Assembly (NCBI GenBank): GCA_964016885.1
Contig: OZ024741.1
Location: 296,856,001 to 296,920,000, forward strand
Direction of reading: 5' to 3'
DNA length: 64,000 nt
Origin: Eledone cirrhosa
Lineage: Eukaryota
Shown here: in pieces, positions 1 through 30,782 of the stretch
Layout of the letters: each line of letters starts with the position of its first letter
Numbering within the stretch: position 1 is the first letter of the stretch
Notes under the pieces: generated by a model
Databases searched by the model: none
What the model was told of the DNA's origin: nothing
What the model saw: the letters and a program-made list of their open reading frames with translations, nothing else
Program-made: the position numbers and the translations under genes

Positions 1-33
1 GCGAAGTGGATAAACATGAAGGAGAACTTATCT

Positions 34-66
<33 letters not shown>

Positions 67-575
67 AGCTAAGCGAGAGATAGAGGGGAAGAAAGAGGGG
101 GGGGAGATATTGTGGCTGACCGCAGCCCCCTCGTGGAGAAGCAAGGAGGGTGAAGGGGTGGATCGGATTTTTGACTTTCAAGTAGCATACTATATATATT
201 TAAAGTAATTTATAAGTAGAATGGGGAGGATTTTGTTTTTTTGTTTGAGAATACGATAGAATTAAGGAATTGGACGAAAACGATAGAATTAAGATAGAAG
301 GTTATGAATGTTTAACAAGCGATTTAACAAAAAGCAAAACTGCAAGATTTGTTCTGTTCAATACGACAAAAACACCGTATTTAAACCTTAAATAGATAAC
401 AAAAAAATACAGATTTCGGATTTTGCGAGATTGGATGTTTGTTTGGACTATGTACGGAATTGAGCGTGGAAATGGAGAGAAGTATTGTACTTTACGATTT
501 ACAGGAGTCCATCATAGAAATAATTGAAGCAGCGGTGGATTGGCGAAGTGGATAAACATGAAGGAGAACTTATCT

Positions 576-608
<33 letters not shown>

Positions 609-1118
609 AGCTAAGCGAGAGATAGAGGGGAAGAAAGAGGGGGGGGGAGATATTGTGGCTGACCGCAGCCCCCTCGTGGAGAAGCAAGGAGGGTGAAGGG
701 GTGGATCGGATTTTTGACTTTCAAGTAGCATACTATATATATTTAAAGTAATTTATAAGTAGAATGGGGAGGATTTTGTTTTTTTGTTTGAGAATACGAT
801 AGAATTAAGGAATTGGACGAAAACGATAGAATTAAGATAGAAGGTTATGAATGTTTAACAAGCGATTTAACAAAAAGCAAAACTGCAAGATTTGTTCTGT
901 TCAATACGACAAAAACACCGTATTTAAACCTTAAATAGATAACAAAAAAATACAGATTTCGGATTTTGCGAGATTGGATGTTTGTTTGGACTATGTACGG
1001 AATTGAGCGTGGAAATGGAGAGAAGTATTGTACTTTACGATTTACAGGAGTCCATCATAGAAATAATTGAAGCAGCGGTGGATTGGCGAAGTGGATAAAC
1101 ATGAAGGAGAACTTATCT

Positions 1119-1151
<33 letters not shown>

Positions 1152-1481
1152 AGCTAAGCGAGAGATAGAGGGGAAGAAAGAGGGGGGGGATATTGTGGCT
1201 GACCGCAGCCCCCTCGTGGAGAAGCAAGGAGGGTGAAGGGGTGGATCGGATTTTTGACTTTCAAGTAGCATACTATATATATTTAAAGTAATTTATAAGT
1301 AGAATGGGGAGGATTTTGTTTTTTTGTTTGAGAATACGATAGAATTAAGGAATTGGACGAAAACGATAGAATTAAGATAGAAGGTTATGAATGTTTAACA
1401 AGCGATTTAACAAAAAGCAAAACTGCAAGATTTGTTCTGTTCAATACGACAAAAACACCGTATTTAAACCTTAAATAGATA
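1..1481. repeat. Tandem repeat, ~542-543-bp unit, ~2.7 near-identical copies (continues off the left edge)
   Basis: gcgaagtggataaac starts at 1, 543 and 1086; units differ mainly in G-run length; array stops at ...ttaaatagata (~1481). Confidence 0.95.
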
Positions 1482-1781
1482 AATATTTATTAAAATAACA
1501 GATTAAAGTTTAAGCAAAGAATCGCTGCTTTCACCCTTAACGGGATCTTCTGAAACTAACAAAGTCAATCTGTAAACGCAGAAGTGAATATTTCAAAAAA
1601 TGTTGCGACCGGAGGAAGACAGGAAGACGATACTTTGGTTCGTGGAAACGTTCCCTGGCAAAGATCGGGAAAAAACGAATATAATACATCATTATTGCTC
1701 TACGGTTCTTATATATTAGATATATATTTATCCTTATCGAGCCCTCTTTGGATTTTAGTCTTCAAATTTATTATTATTACT
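1482..1781 (-). mobile_element. Rearranged fragment of a non-coding hammerhead-bearing (Penelope-type) repeat
   Basis: 1482-1690 matches 6763-6975; 1695-1781 is the reverse complement of 6680-6764; carries the CAGAAGA hammerhead-like motif at 1507-1557 (-). Confidence 0.6.
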
Positions 1782-3614: not shown

Positions 3615-5755
3615 TGGAGAAAAAATTTACGAAATGGAAATGCGGGTATATAGAATTTATTAGGTAACAATTGTTTCTATAGTGTATGAGTTACCTATAC
3701 TTCGCTACTTGAATAATACACAAATATTATCAAAAACCGAAAGTACACTGTAAGCCAACACACCATGTCATCAGACCTTTGTATTAGAATGATATGAAAA
3801 TATTTTATACACTAGATAAAAGATAAAGAAGGAGGTAGGAAGAGAAGGGGAAGAGGGAAGTGAGTAAGGTGGAGGGAGTCTTAGGGTTTAAGACTGTCAG
3901 ACTAGTAGAGATTGTGAAGAGAGAATGTTTTGGCAGCAGTTAGCTTAATGAGGCGTGCTAAGGTTGGCTGGGAAGTAGATTCTTCTAGTGGTGTTGTTCG
4001 GACAAAATTTAGTTAGAGGGGTCAAAGTAGTACAGTGTCACAGACAAGTTATTAGGGCTATTATAGTAGCAGGTTATTTCTAAAGGGGTCCAGAAAAACA
4101 GTGTTTAGTACTATTATTATAGAAAGCGATATCTAGTGTATAAACATATAAGACAGAAATTTGCAAACGTTGGTGTAAAAAGGTAACATTATATGCATTT
4201 AAAAAAAGAAAAAGTCGTTTTCAAACGATGGTTACAATATAGAGAACGTTCAATTTTGCTGTTCAAAAGTTTGTTTACCGACGTTAAAATGCAGTATATC
4301 TCTAAATTGCATAACTTGCAGAATCGATGATTTTGCTGATATGCAGGCACAGCTGCAATAATTTGCCAATCAAGGGAGAACGCTTGATTGTTCCTCCGAA
4401 GCTGCCAGGCTTTATCGGCGAGGGTTGTTACGGAGCGCATTTTCTCGTGCCTGATCGAAGATCGATGTTGGTATAGGTGAGCCTTGAAAGAAGTTGCGGT
4501 ACATCCGACGTAATACCATTTGTTGGTCCCGGAATTTATTGTACACCGGTAGACAATATTGCGTGCTAGGCACTGGTTATTCAGTGGGCACGTACCTGGT
4601 TTGGTGCAGTTACAACTATCTTTATGTTTTGCAGTAGAATCCTGGATAGTTTGGTGGGGTTGTGGTTGCGTGTTAGTGCATTGTATGTTGCTATGCTGGT
4701 GCGCTGAGTCATTAGGGATGTACTTATTCAGTATTGCTGAGTTGAGTTTTCTAATTAGTTGTTCTATGTTAGGTGCAGTGGAGTATGAGAGTCTAATGGT
4801 GCGCGAGTTAAAGATTTTATAGTATTTATGTGAAGTTGTAAAGTGTTTATTGATTAGTGTATAGAATTGTGAGATAATCTTAGTGCTAATAGACGAATTG
4901 TACACGGGGTTATACCATATGTACTCTCTACGTCTGACTCTATTTGCTGGTTTGCACCTGTTAGTATGCCTATTGATGTGTGTGTGAGGTGCAATACTAG
5001 TTCGACTTAGATGTGTTTTATTCATAGTACTTATGTGGTTATCGTCTAGATATTCAATTTTCTCGCAGTAACCAGCTTTTCTAAGTGCGTCATTATAATA
5101 TTCAGCATGCTCGTTGGAGGTCTGCAAATTAGACGACAGTCGGGAGATCCTTATGGATATATTTTTAGGGATAGATTTAATAATGGAATGGGGATTGTTC
5201 GATTTTACATTAACGTACTTAAGATTTTCATTATGTTTGTGAAATGGCTCTATATTACCGTTATTAAGGTTGAAGGTGACATCCAAGAAGTTGACCACCT
5301 TAAGATTGTGTTCGAAGGTAATATTAAGCCCTAGTTCTAAGAAAAGTTTCCTAATGTTTTTACGTCGCCTTTCTAGGTTTTGTTTGTTCATATTCTTGAC
5401 TAATAGAAGTGTAACGTCGCGGTATATTCCGCCGTGGAGGTCCGTAAATTCGCTCTGGAGTCTATGGGCTATATAGATCCCAACCAAATCCGTGACCTCC
5501 GCCGAATCATTAGAACCCATCGTAATGTCGAATTCCGAGGGTCTATCCCTGCGGACCCAATAACTATTTTCAAAGTGCACTACTGTGCGTCTAGCTTCAA
5601 GTATAATATTAATTTCCTCGTTTGTGAGGTCCGAGTTAGTCTTAGCGAAAGAGAGGGCCTTATGCAGGGTTTCGGGTGAAATAGAGGAATAGTATTCATC
5701 TATATCGAATTGAATAAAAGAAGATTTGTTTTTGTCCCTAATGTTATTGAACCAT
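3615..5755 (-). mobile_element. Penelope-like element (RT + C-terminal GIY-YIG, Naiad-like motifs), 5'-truncated
   Basis: Frame extends upstream of 5580 to FIQFDIDEYYSSI; MGSNDSAEVTDLVG, IYRDV (YxDD with D>V), NFLDVTF, CNC..CPL...C, IVYRC..YYVGCT, CKLC; 3' UTR carries a hammerhead. Confidence 0.88.
3662..3778 (-). ncRNA. Type I hammerhead ribozyme with long stem II, in PLE 3' end
   Basis: Minus strand: aggt-CUGAUGA-(c atggtgtg...tacactat a)-GAAA-caattg-UU-acct, followed by aataaa; palindromic stem III. Confidence 0.65.
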
Positions 5756-5765
5756 CTATAAATAT

Positions 5766-5799
<34 letters not shown>

Positions 5800-5801
<2 letters not shown>

Positions 5802-6121
5802 CATTTCATTCATCATTTCATTTTACGTCCGCTTTTTCCCTGCTTGCAAGGGTGGGACGGGAATTGATTCTGGCTTGATTTCTACAGCTGGATGCCCTTC
5901 CTAACACCAACCTCATTTACAGTGAGTGCTGGGTGCTTTTTTGCCGTGGCACCTCCACGACCACTTTGCAGTGGAATGATAGGGACCCCAGTCCCTATCA
6001 TCTCATTTCTACAGCTGAGTAAACTGCAGCAATGTGAAATAAAGTGTCTTGCTCAAGGAAACAACACACTCACAACCTTTCGATTGCAAGGCCAATGCTC
6101 TAACCACTAAGCCATGTGCTT

Positions 6122-6125
<4 letters not shown>
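5800..6125 (-). mobile_element. tRNA-derived SINE (V/Meta-like core, RTE-A tail)
   Basis: Minus strand: tggcttagtggttagagc (A box), ccttgagcaagacacttta core, ends in cccgtcccacccttgcaagcaggg...ggacgtaaaatga like the RTE-A 3' end; B-box region deleted. Confidence 0.85.
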
Positions 6126-6168
<43 letters not shown>

Positions 6169-6190
6169 AATAAACAACATAAGGCAATTA

Positions 6191-6250
6191 TTCCATTTAC
6201 CAGTGGTTTCTTAAAAGCAAAAGATTTTGCTTTCAATCCTCAGAATGAAA
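6191..6250 (-). ncRNA. Type I hammerhead ribozyme, intact core, GUA site
   Basis: Minus strand: tttcatt-CUGAGGA-ttgaaagcaaaa tc ttttgcttttaa-GAAA-ccactgg-UA-aatggaa. Confidence 0.85.
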
Positions 6251-6408
6251 AAATCCTGGTCTGTTTATTGAATTTGGATTTAAAAAAACAAAAATGCATC
6301 TATATGAAAGTGAGGCTGGAGAAAGAAGGAGGAAAGGAAAAAAATAAAATAAAACCACACATGCAAACACGCACACAAACACGCACACACACACACAAAA
6401 GCATACAT

Positions 6409-6451
<43 letters not shown>

Positions 6452-6679
6452 CACTCATACATACACACACATATATACACACATATATGTGTATATAAAT
6501 ACACACATACACATACATATACACATACATACATACGCACATAAATATCAACACATCCATACATACACATACATATATACAACCACACACACATATATAC
6601 ACACATACATACATATAGAAACATAAATATATATATATATATATACATACATATATATACATATATATATATATATATA

Positions 6680-7328
6680 GTAATAATAATAAAATTGAAG
6701 ACTAAAATCCAAAGAGGGCTCGATAAGGAAAATATATATCAAATATATAAGAACCGTAGAGCAAATATTTATTAAAATAACAGATTAAAGTTTAAGCAAA
6801 GAATCGCTGCTTTCACCCTTAACGGGATCTTCTGAAACTAACAAAGTCAATCTGTAAACGCAGAACTGGATATTTCAAAAAACGTTGCAACCGGAGGAAG
6901 ACAGGAAGATGATACTTTGGTTCGTGGTAACGTTCGCTGGCAAAGAACGGGAAAAAACGAATAATACGTCATTAATAGGAGCGGTGAAAAACAATTACGC
7001 GCAAAGACAGAACCACATTTATGGTATAAAAGCGGTCGTAGACTAATTATCTCTTAGTTGGTGCATAGAGACGTTCTCTGGCAATGAACGAAAAAACGAA
7101 GATAATAAGTCAAATGTGGAGCGTGGAGAACAATAGCACGCAAAGACAAAACCACGTAAATGGTATAGCAGAAGTCGTAGACTAAAATTCTAACTAGGAG
7201 ACCAAATGAGTTTTTTGAAATATCCAGTTCTGCGTTTACAGATTGACTTTGTTAGTTTCAGAAGATCCCGTTAAGGGTGAAAGCAGCGATTCTTTGCTTA
7301 AACTTTAATCTGTTATTTTAATAAATAT
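6680..7328. mobile_element. Fold-back insert with ~120-bp inverted arms (6763-6882 / 7211-7328) and internal ~140-bp duplication
   Basis: Arms are near-perfect reverse complements; 6951-7045 resembles 7091-7185; each arm has a hammerhead-like motif. Confidence 0.8.
7254..7304 (+). ncRNA. Hammerhead-like motif with variant core CAGAAGA
   Basis: agttt-CAGAAGA-tccc gttaa gggt-GAAA-gca...tgc-UU-aaact; same motif at 6789-6839 (-) and 1507-1557 (-). Confidence 0.55.
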
Positions 7329-7687
7329 ATATATGTACATGCATACACATACACAAACATAGCCATACACAGATACATACATGCACACAATCATACATAT
7401 ATACACACGTACATACATACACACACTCTCACACATAAATATACATATACAAATACATAAACACATACATACACATACACAAATACATGCACAAACACGC
7501 ACGCACACACGTATACAATTATACACACACATATACACATACATATATACATATATATATATATAAATATAAAAATACACACACACACACATATTTATGT
7601 ATACATACACACACACATGCATACATAGCTATACAATTATACACATACAAATACGTACATATCATAAACACGCACAACCAAATACAA

Positions 7688-7764
<77 letters not shown>

Positions 7765-7962
7765 CATACACACATACATGTGTGTGTGTGTAAAACTCAG
7801 TCTTAGATAATTCATATGAACCTTACATATACAAATATATAGTAGTAAAGTAATAAGCAACATAAGGCAATTATTCCATTCACCAGTGGTTTCTGAGAAG
7901 CCAAAAAATTTTGCCTTCAATCCTCAGAATGAAAAAAACCTGGTCTATATACATATACATAG

Positions 7963-8041
<79 letters not shown>

Positions 8042-8635
8042 TACACATAAATATACATACACATACACATAGGTATGTGAAGGGCAAGGCAAAAAGAATA
8101 TATGGGGGGGGGGGGGAAGACATAGGAAAAGGTGAAATATAAGGGGAGATAAGGGAGGAAAAAATATATACAAGAGTACAGAACGTAGATTCAGCAAAAT
8201 AAAAAAAACTTCTGCTACGGTTTTTTTTATTTTGCTGAATCTACATTCTGTACTCTTGTATATATTTTTTTCTCACTTATCTCCCCTTATATTTCACCTT
8301 TTCCTATGTCTTCCCCCCCCCCCCATATATTCTTTTTGCCTTGCCCTTCACATACCTATGTGTATGTGTATGTATATTTATGTGTATATATGTATATATA
8401 TATATATATATAAATATATATGTGTGTCTATGTATATGTATATGTAGATAGACCAGGTTTTTTTCATTCTGAGGATTGAAGGCAAAATTTTTTTGCTTTT
8501 AAAAAACCACTGGTGAATGGAATAATTGCCTTATGTTGCTTATTACTTTATTACTTTACTACTATATATTTGTATATGTAAGGTTCATATGAATTATCTA
8601 AGACTGAGTTTTACACACACACACATGTATGTGTG

Positions 8636-8680
<45 letters not shown>

Positions 8681-8976
8681 TTGTATTTGGTTGTGCGTGT
8701 TTATGATATGTACGTATTTGTATGTGTATAATTGTATAGCTATGTATGCATGTGTGTGTGTATGTATACATATATATGTGTGTGTGTGTATTTTTATATT
8801 TATATATATATATGTATATATATATGTATGTGTATATGTGTGTGTATAATTGTATACGTGTGTGTGTGCGTGTTTGTGCATGTATTTGTGTATGTGTATG
8901 TATGTACGTGTGTATATATGTATGATTGTGTGCATGTATGTATGTGTGTATGGCTATGTTTGTGTATGTGTATGCA

Positions 8977-9033
<57 letters not shown>

Positions 9034-9426
9034 GTATATATATATGTATGTATATATATATATATTTATGTTTCTATATGTATGTATGTGTGTATATATG
9101 TGTGTGTGGTTGTATATATGTATGTGTATGTATGGATGTGTTGATATTTATGTGTGTATGTATGTATGTGTATATGTATGTGTATGTGTGTATTTATATA
9201 CACATATATGTGTGTATATATGTGTGTGTGTATGTATGAGTGTATGTATATATATATATATATATATATAGTGTGTGTGTGTATGTATGCTTTTGTGTGT
9301 GTGTGCATGTTTGCATGTGTGGTTTTATTTTATTTTTCCTTTCCTTCTTCTTTCTCCAGCCTCACTTTCATATAGATTGCATTTTTGTTTTTTAAAATCC
9401 ATATTCAATAAACAGACCATGATTTT

Positions 9427-9486
9427 TTTCATTCTGAGGATTGAAAGCAAAATCTTTTGCTTTTAAGAAACCACTGGTAAATGGAA
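9427..9486 (+). ncRNA. Type I hammerhead ribozyme, intact core, GUA site
   Basis: tttcatt-CUGAGGA-12-bp stem II-GAAA-ccactgg-UA-aatggaa; mutated sister copies at ~7874-7934 (-, GUG site) and ~8462-8522 (+, AAAA and GUG). Confidence 0.85.
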
Positions 9487-9714
9487 TAATTGCCTTATGT
9501 TGTTTATTACATAACTATTAAGCTCTGTTACCTACATAGAGCACTTCTTTTTCCTGGACTTTTCCGACGGAATTACTTCATTTATATATATATATATACA
9601 TATATATACATAAATATATATAAATATATATATATATTGCAAGCAATGAATCTTGACGTGAACATAACCCCAAAAACTCTTTCCGAGCAATGTAAGGAAC
9701 ACTTTTGGTTATTT

Positions 9715-20755: not shown

Positions 20756-21764
20756 TCTATATACTACTAAAACTCTGATCTTGATTGTTTGCTTGCTTGC
20801 TTGCTTGCACACACTTTCTCTCTATATATATGTTCATATTTGTGTATATACAGGATGTCACCCCAAAAATGTATACCCACTTTGATTGCCTATACATGCA
20901 TTATTTGTTAGGATGGTGTATACAATTTTAGGGACCCCGGTATATATATATATGGTGTCCCCGAAAAATGTATACACACTTTGATTACCTGTACAGGCAA
21001 TATATATATTAGAATGGTGTATACATTTTTAGGGACCCTGGTATATATATATATATGGTGTACCCGAAAAATGTATACACACTTTGATTATCTGTACAGG
21101 CAATATATATATATTAGAATGGTGTATACATTTTTAGGGACCCCGGTATATATATATATATATGGTGTCCCCGAAAAATGTATACACACTTTGATTACCT
21201 GTACAGGCAATATATATATATTAGAATGGTGTATACATTTTTAGGGACCCCGGTATATATATATATATATATATGGTGTCCCCGAAAAATGTATACACAC
21301 TTTGATTACCTGTACAGGCAATATATATATTAGAATGGTGTTGGTGTATACATTTTTAGGGACACCGGTATATATATATATGGTGTCCCCGAAAAATGTA
21401 TACACACTTTGATTACCTGTACCGGCAGTATATATATTAGAATGGTGTATACATTTTTAGGGACACCGGTATATATATATGGTGTCCCGGAAAAATATAT
21501 ACACACTTTGATTACCTGTACAGGCAATATATATATTAGAATGATGTATACATTTTTAGAGACCCCGGTATATATATATGGTGTCCCCGAAAAATGTATA
21601 CACAGTTTGATTACATGTTCTGGCAATATATATATTAGAATGGTGTATATATTTTTAGGGACACCGGTATATATATGTATGGTGTCCCCGAAAAATGTAT
21701 ACACACTGATTACCTGTACAGGCAATATATATATTAGAATGATGTATACATTTTTAGGGACCCC

Positions 21765-21809
<45 letters not shown>

Positions 21810-22099
21810 TGTCCCCGAAAAATGTATACACAGTTTGATTACCTGTACAGGCAATATATATATTAGAATGGTGTATACATTTTTAGGGACACCGGTATAT
21901 ATATATATATGGTGTCCCGGAAAAATGTATACACACTTTGATTACCTGTACAGGCAATATATATATTAGAATGGTGTATACATTTTTAGGGACACCGGTA
22001 TATATATATATATCGTGTCCCGCAAAAATGTATACACACTTTGATTACCTGTACAGGCAATATATATATTAGAATGGTGTATACATTTTTAGGGACCCC

Positions 22100-22132
<33 letters not shown>

Positions 22133-25136: not shown

Positions 25137-25217
25137 TATACTACTAAAACTCTGATCTTGATTGCGTGCTTGCTTGCACACACTTTCTCTATATATATAT
25201 GTTCATATTTGTGTATA

Positions 25218-25729
25218 TACAGGTTGTCCCCCCAAAAATGTATACCCACTTTGATTGCCTATACATGCATTATTTGTTAGGATGGTGTATACATTTTTAG
25301 GGACCCCGGTATATATATATATATGGTGTCCCCGAAAAAAGTATACACACTTTGATTACCTGTACAGGCAATATATATATTAGAATGGTGTATACATTTT
25401 TAGGGACCCCGGTATATATATATATATATATGGTGTCCCAGAAAAATGTATACACACTTAGATTACCTGTACAAGCAATATATATATTAGAATGGTGTAT
25501 ACATTTTTAGGGACCCCGGTATATCTGTATATGGTGTCCCCGAAAAATGTATACACACTTTGATTAACTGTACAGGCAATATATATATTAGATTGGTGTA
25601 TACATTTTTAGGGACCCCGGTATATATATATATATATATATGGTGTCCCCGAAAAATGTATACACACTTTGATTACCTGTACAGGCAATATATATATTAG
25701 AATGGTGTATACATTTTTAGGGACCCCGG

Positions 25730-25762
<33 letters not shown>

Positions 25763-27310
25763 GGGGTCCCCGAAAAATGTATACACGCTTTGATTACCTG
25801 TACAGGCAATATATATATTAGAATGGTGTATACATTTTTAGGGACCCCGGTATATATATATATATATGGTGTCCCCGAAAAATGTATACACACTTTGATT
25901 ACCTGTACAGTCAATATATATATTAGAATGGTGTATACATTTTTAGAGACACCGGTATATATATGGTGTCCCCGAAAAATGTATACACACTTAGATTACC
26001 TGTCCAAGCAATATATATATTAGAATGGTGTATACATTTTTAGGGACCCCGGTATATCTGTATATGGTGTCCCCGAAGAATGTATACACACTTTGATTAC
26101 TTGTACAGTCAATATATATATTAGAATGATGTATACATTTTTAGGGACCCTGTTATATATATATATATATATGGTGTCCCCGAAAAATGTATACACACTT
26201 TGATTACCTGTACAGGCAATATATATATTAGAATGGTGTATACATTTTTAGAGACACCGGTATATATATATATGGTGTCCCCGAAAAATGTATACACACT
26301 TTGATTACCTGTACCGGCAATATATATATTAGAATGGTGTATACATTTTTAGGGACCCCGGTATATATATGTGGTGTCCCCGGAAAATGTATACACACTT
26401 TCATTACCTGTACAGGCAATATATATATTAGAATGGTGTATACATTTTTAGGGACCCCGGTATATATATATATATATGGTGTCCCCGAAAAATGTATACA
26501 CACTTTGATTACCTGTACAGGCAATATATATATTAGAATGGTGTATACATTTTTAGGGACCCCGCTCTATATATATGGTGTCCCCGAAAAATGTATACAC
26601 ACTTTGATTACCTGTACAGGCAATATATATATTAGAATGGTGTATACATGTTTAGGGACTCCGGTATATATATATATATATATGGTGTCCCCGAAAAATG
26701 TATACACATTTTGATTACCTGTAGAGGCAATATATATATTAGAATGGTGTATACATTTTAGGGACACCGGTATATATATATATATGGTGTCCCAGAAAAA
26801 TGTATACACACTTTGATTACCTGTACAGGCAATATATATATTAGAATGATGTATACATTTTTACGAACCCCGTTATATATATATATATATATATATGGTA
26901 ACCCGAAAAATGTATACACACTTTGATTACCTGTACAGGCAATATATATATTAGAATGGTGTATACATTTTTAGGGACCCCGGTATATATATATATATAT
27001 ATATATATATGGTGTCCCAGAAAAATGTATACACACTTAGATTACCTGTACAAGCAATATATATATTAGAATGGTGTATACATTTTTAGGGACCCCGGTA
27101 TATCTGTATATGGTGTCCCCGAAAAATGTATACACACTTTGATTACCTGTACAGGCAATATATATATTAGATTGGTGTATACATTTTTAGGGACCCCGGT
27201 ATATATATATATATATATATATGGTGTCCCCGAAAAATGTATACACACTTTGATTACCTGTACAGGCAATATATATATTAGAATGGTGTATACATTTTTA
27301 GGGACCCCGG

Positions 27311-27341
<31 letters not shown>

Positions 27342-27813
27342 GTGGTCCCCGAAAAATGTATACACACTTTGATTACCTGTACAGGCAATATATATATTAG
27401 AATGGTGTATACATTTTTAGGGACCCCGGTATATATATATATATATGGTGTCCCCGAAAAATGTATACACACTTTGATTACCTGTACAGTCAATATATAT
27501 ATTAGAATGGTGTATACATTTTTAGAGACACCGGTATATATATATATGGTGTCCCCGAAAAATGTATACACACTTTGATTACCTGTACCGGCAATATATA
27601 TATTAGAATGGTGTATACATTTTTAGGGACCCCGGTATATATATGTGGTGTCCCCGGAAAATATATATATTAGATTGGTGTATACATTTTTAGGGACCCC
27701 GGTATATATATATATATATATATATGGTGTCCCCGAAAAATGTATACACACTTTGATTACCTGTACAGGCAATATATATATTAGAATGGTGTATACATTT
27801 TTAGGGACCCCGG

Positions 27814-27847
<34 letters not shown>

Positions 27848-28344
27848 TGGGGTCCCCGAAAAATGTATACACACTTTGATTACCTGTACAGGCAATATAT
27901 ATATTAGAATGGTGTATACATTTTTAGGGACCCCGGTATATCTGTATATGGTGTCCCCGAAGAATGTATACACACTTTGATTACCTGTACAGTCAATATA
28001 TATATTAGAATGATGTATACATTTTTAGGGACCCTGTTATATATATATATATATATGGTGTCCCCGAAAAATGTATACACACTTTGATTACCTGTACAGG
28101 CAATATATATATTAGAATGGTGTATACATTTTTAGAGACACCGGTATATATATATATATGGTGTCCCCGAAAAATGTATACACACTTTGATTACCTGTAC
28201 CGGCAATATATATATTAGAATGGTGTATACATTTTTAGGGACCCCGGTATATATATGTGGTGTCCCCGGAAAATGTATACACACTTTCATTACCTGTACA
28301 GGCAATATATATATTAGAATGGTGTATACATTTTTAGGGACCCC

Positions 28345-28381
<37 letters not shown>

Positions 28382-30010
28382 TGTCCCCGAAAAATGTATA
28401 CACACTTTGATTACCTGTACAGGCAATATATATATTAGAATGGTGTATACATTTTTAGGGACCCCGCTCTATATATATGGTGTCCCCGAAAAATGTATAC
28501 ACTCTTTGATTACCTGTACAGGCAATATATATATTAGAATGGTGTATACATGTTTAGGGACTCCGGTATATATATATATATATATGGTGTCCCCGAAAAA
28601 TGTATACACATTTTGATTACCTGTAGAGGCAATATATATATTAGAATGGTGTATACATTTTAGGGACACCGGTATATATATATATATGGTGTCCCAGAAA
28701 AATGTATACACACTTTGATTACCTGTACAGGCAATATATATATTAGAATGCTGTATACATTTTACGAACCCCGTTATATATATATATATATATATGGTAA
28801 CCCGAAAAATGTATACACACTTTGATTACCTGTACAGGCAATATATATATTAGAATGGTGTATACATTTTTAGGGACACCGGTATATATATATATATATA
28901 TATGGTCTCCCGCTAAAATGTATACACACTTTGATTACCTGTAGAGGCAATATATATATTAGAATGGTGTATACATTTTTACGGACAGCGGTATATATAT
29001 ATATATATGTGGTGTCGCCGAAAAATGTATACACACTTAGATTACCTGTACAGGCAATATATATATTAGAATGGTGTATACATTTTTAGGGACCCCGGTA
29101 TATATATATATATCTGGTGTCCCCGAAAAATGTATACACATTTTGATTACCTGTACAGGCAATATATATATTAGAATGGTGTATACATTTTTAGGGACAC
29201 CGGTATATATATATATGGTGTACCCGAAAAATATATACACACTTTGATTACCTGTACAGGCAATATATATATTAGAATGGTGTATACATTTTTAGGGACA
29301 CCGGTATATATATATATATGGTGTCCCGCAAAAATGTATACACACTTTGATTACCTGTACAGGCAATATATATATTAGAATGGTGTATACATTTTTAGGG
29401 ACACCGGTATATATATATATGGTGTCCCGCAAAAATGTATACACACTTTGATTACCTGTACAGGCAATATATATATTAGAATGGTGTATACATTTTTAGG
29501 GACACCGGTATATATATATATATGGTGTCCCGCAAAAATGTATACACACTTTGATTACCTGTACAGGCAATATATATATTAGAATGGTGTATACATTTTT
29601 AGGGACACCGGTATATATATATATGGTGTCCCGCAAAAATGTATACACACTTTGATTACCTGTACAGGCAATATATATATTAGAATGGTCTATACATTTT
29701 TAGGGACACCGGTATATATATATATGGTGTCCCGCAAAAATGTATACACACTTTGATTACCTGTACCGGCTCTATATATGGTGTATGCATTTTTACGGAC
29801 CCCGTTATATATATATATATATATATATATATGGTGTCCCCGAAAAATGTATACACACTTTGATTACCTGTACAGGCAATATATATCTTAGAATGGTGTA
29901 TACATTTTTAGGGATTCCGGTATATATATATATGGTGTCCCCGAAAAATGTATACACACTTTGATTACCTGTACAGGTAATATATATATTAGAATGGTGT
30001 ATACATTTTT
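25218..30010. repeat. Satellite array 2: same unit, roughly 45 copies, with higher-order duplication
   Basis: Preceded by the same leader (25137-25217) and same divergent first monomer as array 1. Confidence 0.95.
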
Positions 30011-30782
30011 ATAAAGTAAATTTACTTTATTCTTAACTCTTTTTTAATTCCTAATCTAGCATTTTCCATTTTTCATTTTTCCTCATATTATTGGCCATTG
30101 AAACTATATATTTTTTAATATTTTGTTAACATATATACTTTTTGACGTTAGATATTTTTTCTTCCTTAAATTCTATTTTTCTTCTCTCCTTCCGTGCTTG
30201 TTTTAAACCTATTATTTACTTATACATATTACAATACATAAAAACAAACTTAAACCCTAAATAATTCCTCTAAGTTCATAACTCATTTATTCTTCTCCTT
30301 CTTTCACATTATATCCTTAATATCATTAATATTTTAATTTTAATAATACATATTAATAAATTCTCTTTTTTTCGCACATATTATTAAACCCTTCAATACA
30401 TAAACCTAAATTAATACTATTCCTAATTCCTTTTTCTTCAATCATAAACATCAACATCCATAAACCTCATTAACTCTTAATTTCAAAATCTTTTAAATTA
30501 TCTATTATCTTCCAACGGTTTTTTTAATTTCTCTCTGTAAAGCCTATTGTAAAGCCTATTTCTCTCTCTCTATCACTCATTTCTCCTCCTCTCTCATCCT
30601 TCCTTCTTATACTCCTCCCCCACCATCCTTTATTTTCTTTCTTCCTCTTCCTTACCTTTTCCTACCCCCCCCCCCCCTCATTTTTTTCCTAATCTCATAT
30701 ATCCATCTTACTTTATTTTTTCATATGTTGATTTAAAAATTCACTGCTCACAAGTGTTTTTAAGCTTCATATCATGTCTCCC

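What the first reader, a model, noticed from the sequence alone, without database searches (positions are those of the whole stretch)
6169..9508. 3.3-kb palindromic, retrozyme-like element: tandem hammerhead repeats enclosing a microsatellite body
Seen: each arm holds two ~95-nt repeats with a type I hammerhead (CUGAGGA, 12-bp stem II, GAAA, ccactgg stem III). On the right arm the cores are 965 nt apart (8469, 9434) and enclose a non-coding CA/TA-rich body whose irregular pattern is mirrored in the left arm. The outer ribozymes are intact (GUA); the inner ones carry GUG. Known: Penelope-like elements carry hammerheads in their pseudo-LTRs and often insert with inverted copies; retrozymes are non-autonomous hammerhead repeats that yield circular RNAs. 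Inference: a non-autonomous cephalopod retrozyme family that looks like simple repeat, mobilised by PLE RT.
Basis: partly seen in the sequence, partly recalled or inferred. Interest (0 to 1): 0.85.

Follow-up and report, generated by a model that had tools for sequence, protein, structure and literature searches.

The report
Inverted end-pair of Penelope-like retrotransposon
The palindrome is two back-to-back, truncated copies of the non-coding end of a protein-coding Penelope-like retrotransposon that has thousands of copies in this genome, not a stand-alone ribozyme element; its ends likely record how these elements copy themselves into both DNA strands at once.

Summary
The palindrome and its four hammerhead repeats are real. 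The retrozyme reading fails. In other genomic copies the same sequence runs upstream into a 710-aa ORF whose model best matches telomerase RT and which carries the Hydra-clade Penelope-like (PLE) motifs. The window holds two 5'-truncated copies of this element's 3' UTR, joined head-to-head in a (TA)n target; a third PLE family sits in the left arm. The finding stops short: the right arm has a ~68-nt tail reaching 9586.

Family results: at least 3,960 exact terminal-hammerhead matches. Copies end at two fixed sites, +39 or +101 to +109 past the ribozyme cut site. Inverted pairs carry one of each (26/27 and 22/22). The inner hammerhead has an uncleavable-type GUG (99/100) and was gained once (40/40 copies form one clade). 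Older lineages and a sister family have one hammerhead. It is likely a dead self-insertion, so no ~1-kb circle is expected.

Verdict: new family of a known clade. The pair rule is a testable clue to PLE two-strand priming. No RNA or cleavage evidence was obtained.

The parts
6124..6165 (.). (TA)n target, left flank
   Evidence: family ends abut (TA)n
6168..8209 (-). Left arm: 5'-truncated 3' UTR copy with the short-type end (stops ~30 nt past the cut site, ~9 nt short of the usual +39)
6191..6250 (-). Terminal type I hammerhead, left arm, intact core, GUA; predicted cut after 6198
6680..7328 (.). Nested insertion in a TA run: inverted end-pair (tailed arm 7209->6680, short arm 7210-7328) of a third Hydra-like PLE family
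   Evidence: ORF 34-44% identical to the 710-aa protein lies upstream in 4 of 9 other copies
7874..7934 (-). Inner hammerhead relic, left arm (GUG; stem II with 3 mismatches)
8208..8219 (.). Palindrome axis: the two 5' truncation points, ~11 nt apart, 2-nt overlap, ~20 nt downstream of where the ORF stop lies in full copies
8208..9586 (+). Right arm: 5'-truncated 3' UTR copy with the tailed end
8462..8522 (+). Inner hammerhead relic, right arm (GUG, and AAAA for GAAA)
8546..9410 (+). Microsatellite-rich UTR body, inherited with the family; landmarks older than the inner hammerhead
9427..9486 (+). Terminal type I hammerhead: stem I 7 bp, stem II 11 bp, quasi-palindromic 3-bp stem III, GUA; predicted cut after 9479
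9519..9586 (+). Tail between the two family end sites, with a hairpin (9522-9542) shared with the sister family; in tandems it leads into the next ORF's 5' UTR
9583..9637 (.). (TA)n target, right flank

Best explanation
The palindrome is a head-to-head pair of 5'-truncated copies of the 3' UTR of an autonomous Hydra-clade Penelope-like retrotransposon, sitting in a (TA)n run and likely made in one event by reverse transcription primed from both cut target strands. SHOWN: unit anatomy (tail - 5' UTR - 710-aa ORF - 1.5-2 kb microsatellite UTR - hammerhead; tandem period 4.1-4.7 kb), TA target, two fixed 3' ends, one short plus one tailed end per pair, and a single late gain of a GUG inner hammerhead. 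INFERRED: the GIY-YIG domain nicks both strands of (TA)n. Each 3'-OH primes RT on a transcript not cut at its terminal hammerhead, one at the +39 site and one at the +101-109 site, either side of the tail hairpin. Both cDNAs stopped ~20 nt short of the ORF and were joined by microhomology. The inner hammerhead likely arose when a short-ended fragment inserted into a TA run of the element's own UTR and survived in the master lineage as an inactive relic. The terminal hammerhead likely needs a dimer or protein help and would trim tandem transcripts rather than make ~1-kb circles.
For: ORF upstream of the window's axis sequence in other copies. Intact 710-aa ORF. AF2 model from a 75-sequence alignment has pLDDT 92, and its top nine Foldseek hits are telomerase RTs (best E 4.8e-9). 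Motifs RWK37, DKT114, YRDDG346, CxCX5C555, CxxC658, CxH689 are conserved in the alignment and match Craig 2021's Hydra definition. Ends: 45 at +38-47, 32 at +101-113 (old and young numbering), 11 read on into the next ORF, of 88. The same two ends, followed by TA, appear in short-read contigs of 4 runs from one study. Pairs: 26 of 27 and 22 of 22 on C1 up to 128.8 Mb (one pair shared) are short+tail, p about 2e-7 each against 50%. Some tailed arms are tail only (L079, L102), which copying the partner arm cannot give. Inner gain: 40 of 40 inner-positive ORFs form one clade (100/100) nested in 8 single-hammerhead copies, with the sister family as outgroup. Terminal hammerhead core is kept across families with changed stems. 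Frangieh 2024 shows both-strand extension, two internal start sites and uncleaved RNA as template for another PLE.
Against: No Pfam or PDB sequence hit supports RT or GIY-YIG directly; the endonuclease call rests on motifs, and no GIY-YIG structure was among the listed fold hits. Clade membership rests on motifs, not on a tree with curated Hydra families. One tail+tail pair was seen (L107, a nested locus). Genome-wide, short ends outnumber tail read-throughs 3,160 to 1,692; very short tailed arms may explain this, but it was not counted. In this window the two truncation points are only ~11 nt apart, which also fits fold-back. Frangieh 2024 saw no strand difference in start sites in vitro. Cleavage and transcription are untested.
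Confidence: 0.85

Rival explanations
1. Same PLE, but the palindrome forms by self-priming or fold-back of one cDNA (or of an antisense template), as proposed for rotifer Penelope elements, not by two primings.
For: Near-symmetric junction with a 10-nt loop here. Many short pairs have both arms truncated within ~20 nt of each other near a self-complementary T/A run (junctions approximate). Arkhipova 2013 proposes self-priming (passages).
Against: Arm lengths are often very unequal: short-ended arm longer in 18, tailed arm longer in 7, equal in 3, of 28 (the window's own row is inflated by its insert). Tail-only arms share no sequence with their partner.
Confidence: 0.2
2. The inner GUG hammerhead is a kept, uncleavable partner that pairs through the palindromic stem III with the terminal one and lets it cleave within a single transcript.
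For: Stem III is far more stable as a two-strand duplex (-8.2 or -7.0 kcal/mol) than as a hairpin (+0.4). 27 of 30 unbiased inner copies keep each core half. G17 is fixed across subfamilies.
Against: A6>U in the inner core is shared by 4 loci of the older group and, separately, by 3 young loci with open frames of 677-714 codons; that A6 is needed is recalled. The inner copy diverges like the flanking UTR (84-85% vs 88%) while the terminal one keeps 95%. Older lineages and the sister family spread without it.
Confidence: 0.08
3. One reading: a non-autonomous retrozyme whose two hammerheads release a ~1-kb monomer that circularises and is copied by a PLE RT.
For: The window copy has no ORF. Two hammerheads flank a conserved body in many loci. 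One ORF-less same-strand GUA pair 877 nt apart exists (L074). Animal retrozymes are reported to derive from PLE pLTRs.
Against: Inner site is GUG in 99 of 100. Spacing is not fixed. 9 of 12 same-strand GUA pairs have an ORF start between them, and 2 of the other 3 are 3.9 and 6.9 kb apart. Ends do not coincide with cut sites. No head-to-tail multimer was seen in the loci held; this was not a genome-wide census.
Confidence: 0.04
4. Assembly artefact or a DNA foldback transposon with long terminal inverted repeats.
For: Long palindrome in low-complexity sequence.
Against: The arms differ, inner boundaries vary between loci, the ends are asymmetric, and an RT ORF lies upstream in full copies.
Confidence: 0.02

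Closest known systems
Hydra clade of C-terminal EN+ Penelope-like elements (Craig et al. 2021, PMC8557442), including Hydra-1_Obim
   Same: Single ORF with RWK, DKT, CxCX5C, CxxC and CxH motifs; hammerhead near the 3' end with a similar palindromic stem III; (TA)n target; tandem and inverted insertions.
   Different: Unit is about 3.7-4.7 kb against 'generally <3 kb' (Hydra-1_Obim 2,507 bp). It has a 1.5-2 kb microsatellite UTR, a second dead hammerhead, and a 62-70-nt tail against the 30-40 bp given for PLEs. By eye the protein differs clearly from Hydra-1_Obim, so it is a separate family; identity was not computed.
Poseidon element PAc of Anolis (Frangieh et al. 2024, PMC11167929)
   Same: Two internal RT start sites bounding the tail; AT-rich target; template not cut at the hammerhead.
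   Different: In PAc the sites and hammerhead overlap the ORF start; here they lie about 120-230 nt upstream of it. A one-short-one-tail count per insertion was not in the two of four parts read.
Adineta vaga Penelope families (Arkhipova et al. 2013, PMC3846280)
   Same: Head-to-head inverted pLTRs with palindromic junctions; tail on one inverted pLTR; Pen1 has a 0.9-1.5 kb spacer before the 3' pLTR.
   Different: Low copy number; spacers unique per copy rather than inherited; explained there by self-priming.
Animal non-LTR retrozymes (Cervera and de la Pena 2020, PMC7229834; bioRxiv 10.64898/2026.07.22.740005)
   Same: Type I hammerhead with short stem III; low GC; PLE connection.
   Different: Those are ORF-less tandem repeats of ~150-450 bp with a complete hammerhead in each unit, expressed as circles. 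Here there is one cleavable hammerhead per ORF-bearing unit.

Membership tests
EN+ Penelope-like element | Single ORF with telomerase-like RT | tested here: met
   710-aa ORF; YRDD motif; top fold hits are TERTs. Met by the family; the window copy lacks the ORF.
EN+ Penelope-like element | GIY-YIG endonuclease domain | tested here: inconclusive
   VYEA...YVG, E664 and N680 conserved in 75 homologs; homolog P0003 scores Pfam GIY-YIG; no direct Pfam hit for this ORF.
EN+ Penelope-like element | Partial tandems forming pLTRs, inverted 5'-truncated copy, one-sided tail | tested here: met
EN+ Penelope-like element | Hammerhead in the pLTR | tested here: met
   Core and three stems; stems change while the core is kept in the sister family. 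Activity not tested.
Hydra clade | RWK, DKT, CxCX5C linker, CxxC and CxH around E and N, C-terminal EN | tested here: met
Hydra clade | Insertion into (TA)n | tested here: met
Hydra clade | Groups with curated Hydra families in an RT tree | not tested
   Curated sequences were seen only in a paper supplement and compared by eye.
Hydra clade | Generally shorter than 3 kb (descriptive, not strict) | tested here: not met
   Tandem period 4.1-4.7 kb
Non-LTR retrozyme | No protein-coding capacity in the family unit | tested here: not met
Non-LTR retrozyme | At least two consecutive units each with a complete hammerhead | tested here: not met
   Inner copy GUG in 99 of 100; the right inner copy also lacks G12
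Non-LTR retrozyme | Short tandem monomer of about 150-450 bp | tested here: not met
   Spacing 569-2,398 nt, median 1,445
Non-LTR retrozyme | Expressed as linear and circular monomer RNA | not testable with these tools
   No RNA run was listed

The most novel reading that the evidence does not exclude
PLE inverted insertions are made by obligate asymmetric twin priming: one RT-endonuclease dimer holds the tail hairpin and starts one cDNA on each side of it, one per target strand, so every insertion gets exactly one short and one tailed end. This young family, with near-identical open-frame copies, would make that directly testable. Its self-inserting, microsatellite-laden UTR would also be an unrecognised source of this genome's simple repeats.
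Probability: 0.45. Interest if true: 0.6.

Novelty: new member of a known kind. Interest (0 to 1): 0.35.

Why it matters
Craig 2021 names the formation of tandem/inverted structures and microsatellite bias as unresolved features of PLE transposition. A near-strict short+tail rule and tail-only arms favour two primings over the published self-priming idea, and they give a sharp in vitro prediction. The family also shows how a two-hammerhead, retrozyme-looking unit can arise by self-insertion without being a retrozyme, which matters for motif-based retrozyme surveys. It shows too that some apparent simple repeat is inherited transposon UTR. The locus itself is an ordinary dead insertion.

Tried and rejected
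Rfam scan at E<=1: only sub-threshold miRNA-like hairpin hits, no hammerhead. Pfam and PDB sequence searches of the ORF: nothing significant. Single-sequence AF2 model: pLDDT 35, discarded. Sequencing-run search: no RNA holder listed, which is no evidence on expression; the four contig runs laid come from one study, are of unknown kind and showed no strand-switch joint over the stretch laid. First tree mislabelled two inner-positive copies through a strict motif match and rejected monophyly; relabelling by alignment gave one clade (9 copies with unseen UTR and 12 of 15 sister copies left out; bootstrap not fully settled). I first read the 650-bp insert as a MITE; rejected once a one-sided tail and an upstream ORF were found. 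Core counts were conditioned on the motif and were replaced. The earlier-findings index returned nothing. Paper searches found no description of this family, of a PLE self-inserted dead hammerhead, or of a per-insertion end count. Repbase, Dfam, subscription papers and bioRxiv supplements were not visible, and the repeat library of PMC13282606 was not examined; any of these may hold the family.

Full report
OBSERVATION. The region reads as described. Self-alignment gives inverted arms 6168-6679/9015-9509 and 7321-8209/8208-8995, with the axis at 8208-8219 and a 650-bp insert (6680-7328) in the left arm only. Non-microsatellite blocks of the two arms differ at 2.2-2.5%. Four hammerhead cores lie at 6243(-), 7927(-), 8469(+) and 9434(+), all reading outward from the axis. 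The outer ones have stem I 7 bp, stem II 11 bp, a 3-bp stem III and GUA. The inner ones have GUG; the right inner also has AAAA for GAAA and the left inner a damaged stem II. Rfam has no hit for them and free folding does not return the whole fold. The constrained fold lies within 0.6 kcal/mol of the MFE.

WHAT IT BELONGS TO. The window lies in a 3.0-Gb genome. The repeat has many near-identical copies, often as divergent pairs; a 26-mer from it matches exactly 3,960 times, the control 0 times. Copies found with the sequence next to the axis run upstream into coding sequence. Longer stretches give the unit: hammerhead - tail - 5' UTR - ORF - UTR with inner hammerhead and microsatellite body - terminal hammerhead. 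Same-strand tandems have a period of 4.1-4.7 kb. A protein search scored 99 candidates and many have open frames of 713-715 codons, some with identical scores; L087 encodes 710 aa. Pfam and PDB sequence searches are blank. A model built from 75 aligned sequences (pLDDT 92) matches telomerase RTs best. The motifs RWK, DKT, YRDDG, CxCX5C, CxxC and CxH are those given for the Hydra clade (Craig 2021, section 11 read whole). That paper's supplement lists Hydra-1_Obim, 2,507 bp, (TA)n target, one hammerhead with a similar stem III (passages); by eye it is a different family. The host is likely a cephalopod, but this was not tested. Both window arms begin about 20 nt after the position of the stop codon, so this copy is UTR only.

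ENDS. Of 88 terminal hammerheads with enough downstream sequence, 45 end at +38 to +47 past the cut site, 32 at +101 to +113 and 11 read on into the next ORF; the true ends abut TA-rich repeat. Short-read contigs of four runs from one study show loose ends with TA at the same two places. Divergent pairs carry one short and one tailed end in 26 of 27 loci held, window included, and in 22 of 22 pairs drawn from two exact-pattern lists on C1 up to 128.8 Mb (one pair is common to both sets). Genome-wide the exact patterns give 3,160 short ends and 1,692 tail read-throughs. The sister family (72% ORF identity) and the family nested in the left arm also show a short and a tailed end, and the tail hairpin is shared with the sister family. 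Because inserted copies extend past the cut site, the template was not cleaved there, or was religated (inference). Frangieh 2024 (parts 1-2 of 4 read) found for an Anolis PLE a predicted dimer, extension of both strands, two internal start sites bounding the tail, and no need for hammerhead cleavage, but no strand difference in start sites. Arkhipova 2013 (passages) describes the one-sided tail and proposes self-priming. Tail-only arms (L079, L102) and very unequal arms favour two primings; the near-symmetric junction in this window alone does not decide.

INNER HAMMERHEAD. It is GUG in 99 of 100 listed matches (1 GUC, 0 GUA; 120 in all); that GUG is not cleaved is recalled knowledge. Copies with ORFs 85-92% identical to the young group share the body landmarks but lack it, as does the sister family, whose single hammerhead keeps the core with different, still paired stems. 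In an ORF tree rooted by the sister family, 40 of 40 inner-positive copies form one clade (100/100) inside 8 inner-negative ones (the mislabelled first run, rejected this). The inner copy starts after a TA run and stops at the short-end position, like solo fragments elsewhere (L160), so self-insertion into the element's own UTR is the likely origin. A helper role through a stem III dimer is energetically possible, and PLE hammerheads are thought to act as dimers (Cervera 2014, passages). But A6>U is shared within two spreading sublineages and the inner copy diverges like neutral UTR.

RETROZYME TEST. Animal retrozymes are ORF-less ~150-450-bp tandems with a complete hammerhead per unit, expressed as circles (Cervera 2020, passages; bioRxiv 10.64898/2026.07.22.740005, part 1 of 5 and passages). 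Here the family codes, the inner site is uncleavable-type, spacing is 569-2,398 nt, and 9 of 12 same-strand GUA pairs enclose an ORF start. One ORF-less 877-nt pair (L074) is a partial tandem. Expression could not be examined.

NOVELTY. Every structural class seen is known for PLEs. A recent octopus repeat annotation counts 31 recently active Penelope-like families without mentioning Hydra or hammerheads in its main text (passages). New here, as far as searches reach: this family, its long inherited microsatellite UTR, the 62-70-nt tail, the dated gain of a dead second hammerhead, and the counted pair rule. Verdict: real, explained, a new member of a known clade; interest 0.35.

Noticed in passing
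window 4228-5754 (-): 5'-truncated ORF of another Hydra-like PLE family (35% identity to the 710-aa protein), starting at the (TA)n at 5757. By eye a hammerhead with a ~90-nt stem II region and a palindromic stem III lies near 3660-3780 (-).
   Followed up: partly
window 6680-7328; second copy near 1520-1790: Third PLE family (1,957 candidates) with an 82-85-nt tail and two 139-bp repeats. Its hammerhead-like motif is non-canonical (CAGAAGA core, no clear UH site), yet copies are 98% alike.
   Followed up: partly
L133-L161 (for example L148): Sister Hydra family with open 719-codon frames, one hammerhead, a long stem II, and its own microsatellite-rich UTR and short/tail ends.
   Followed up: partly
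window 9538-9545; L095 ~5325; L133 upstream of the ORF: A GAGCAC motif occurs both in the tail hairpin and ~40 nt before the ORF start in two families; a candidate protein-binding signal.
   Followed up: no
window ~9385-9395 equivalent (L002, L003, L009, L015, L023, L028): Many short pairs truncate both arms about 20-30 nt upstream of the hammerhead repeat, at a self-complementary T/A run; a junction hotspot.
   Followed up: partly
window 20845-22116 and 25214-30011: Long arrays of a ~100-bp, internally palindromic unit separated by TA runs.
   Followed up: no
window 5800-6120: SINE-like repeat with a weak tRNA match between two TA runs, next to the left arm; similar sequence sits inside PLE UTRs in L115 and L118.
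   Followed up: no
window 1-1500: About three tandem copies of a ~480-bp unit, seen by eye.
   Followed up: no
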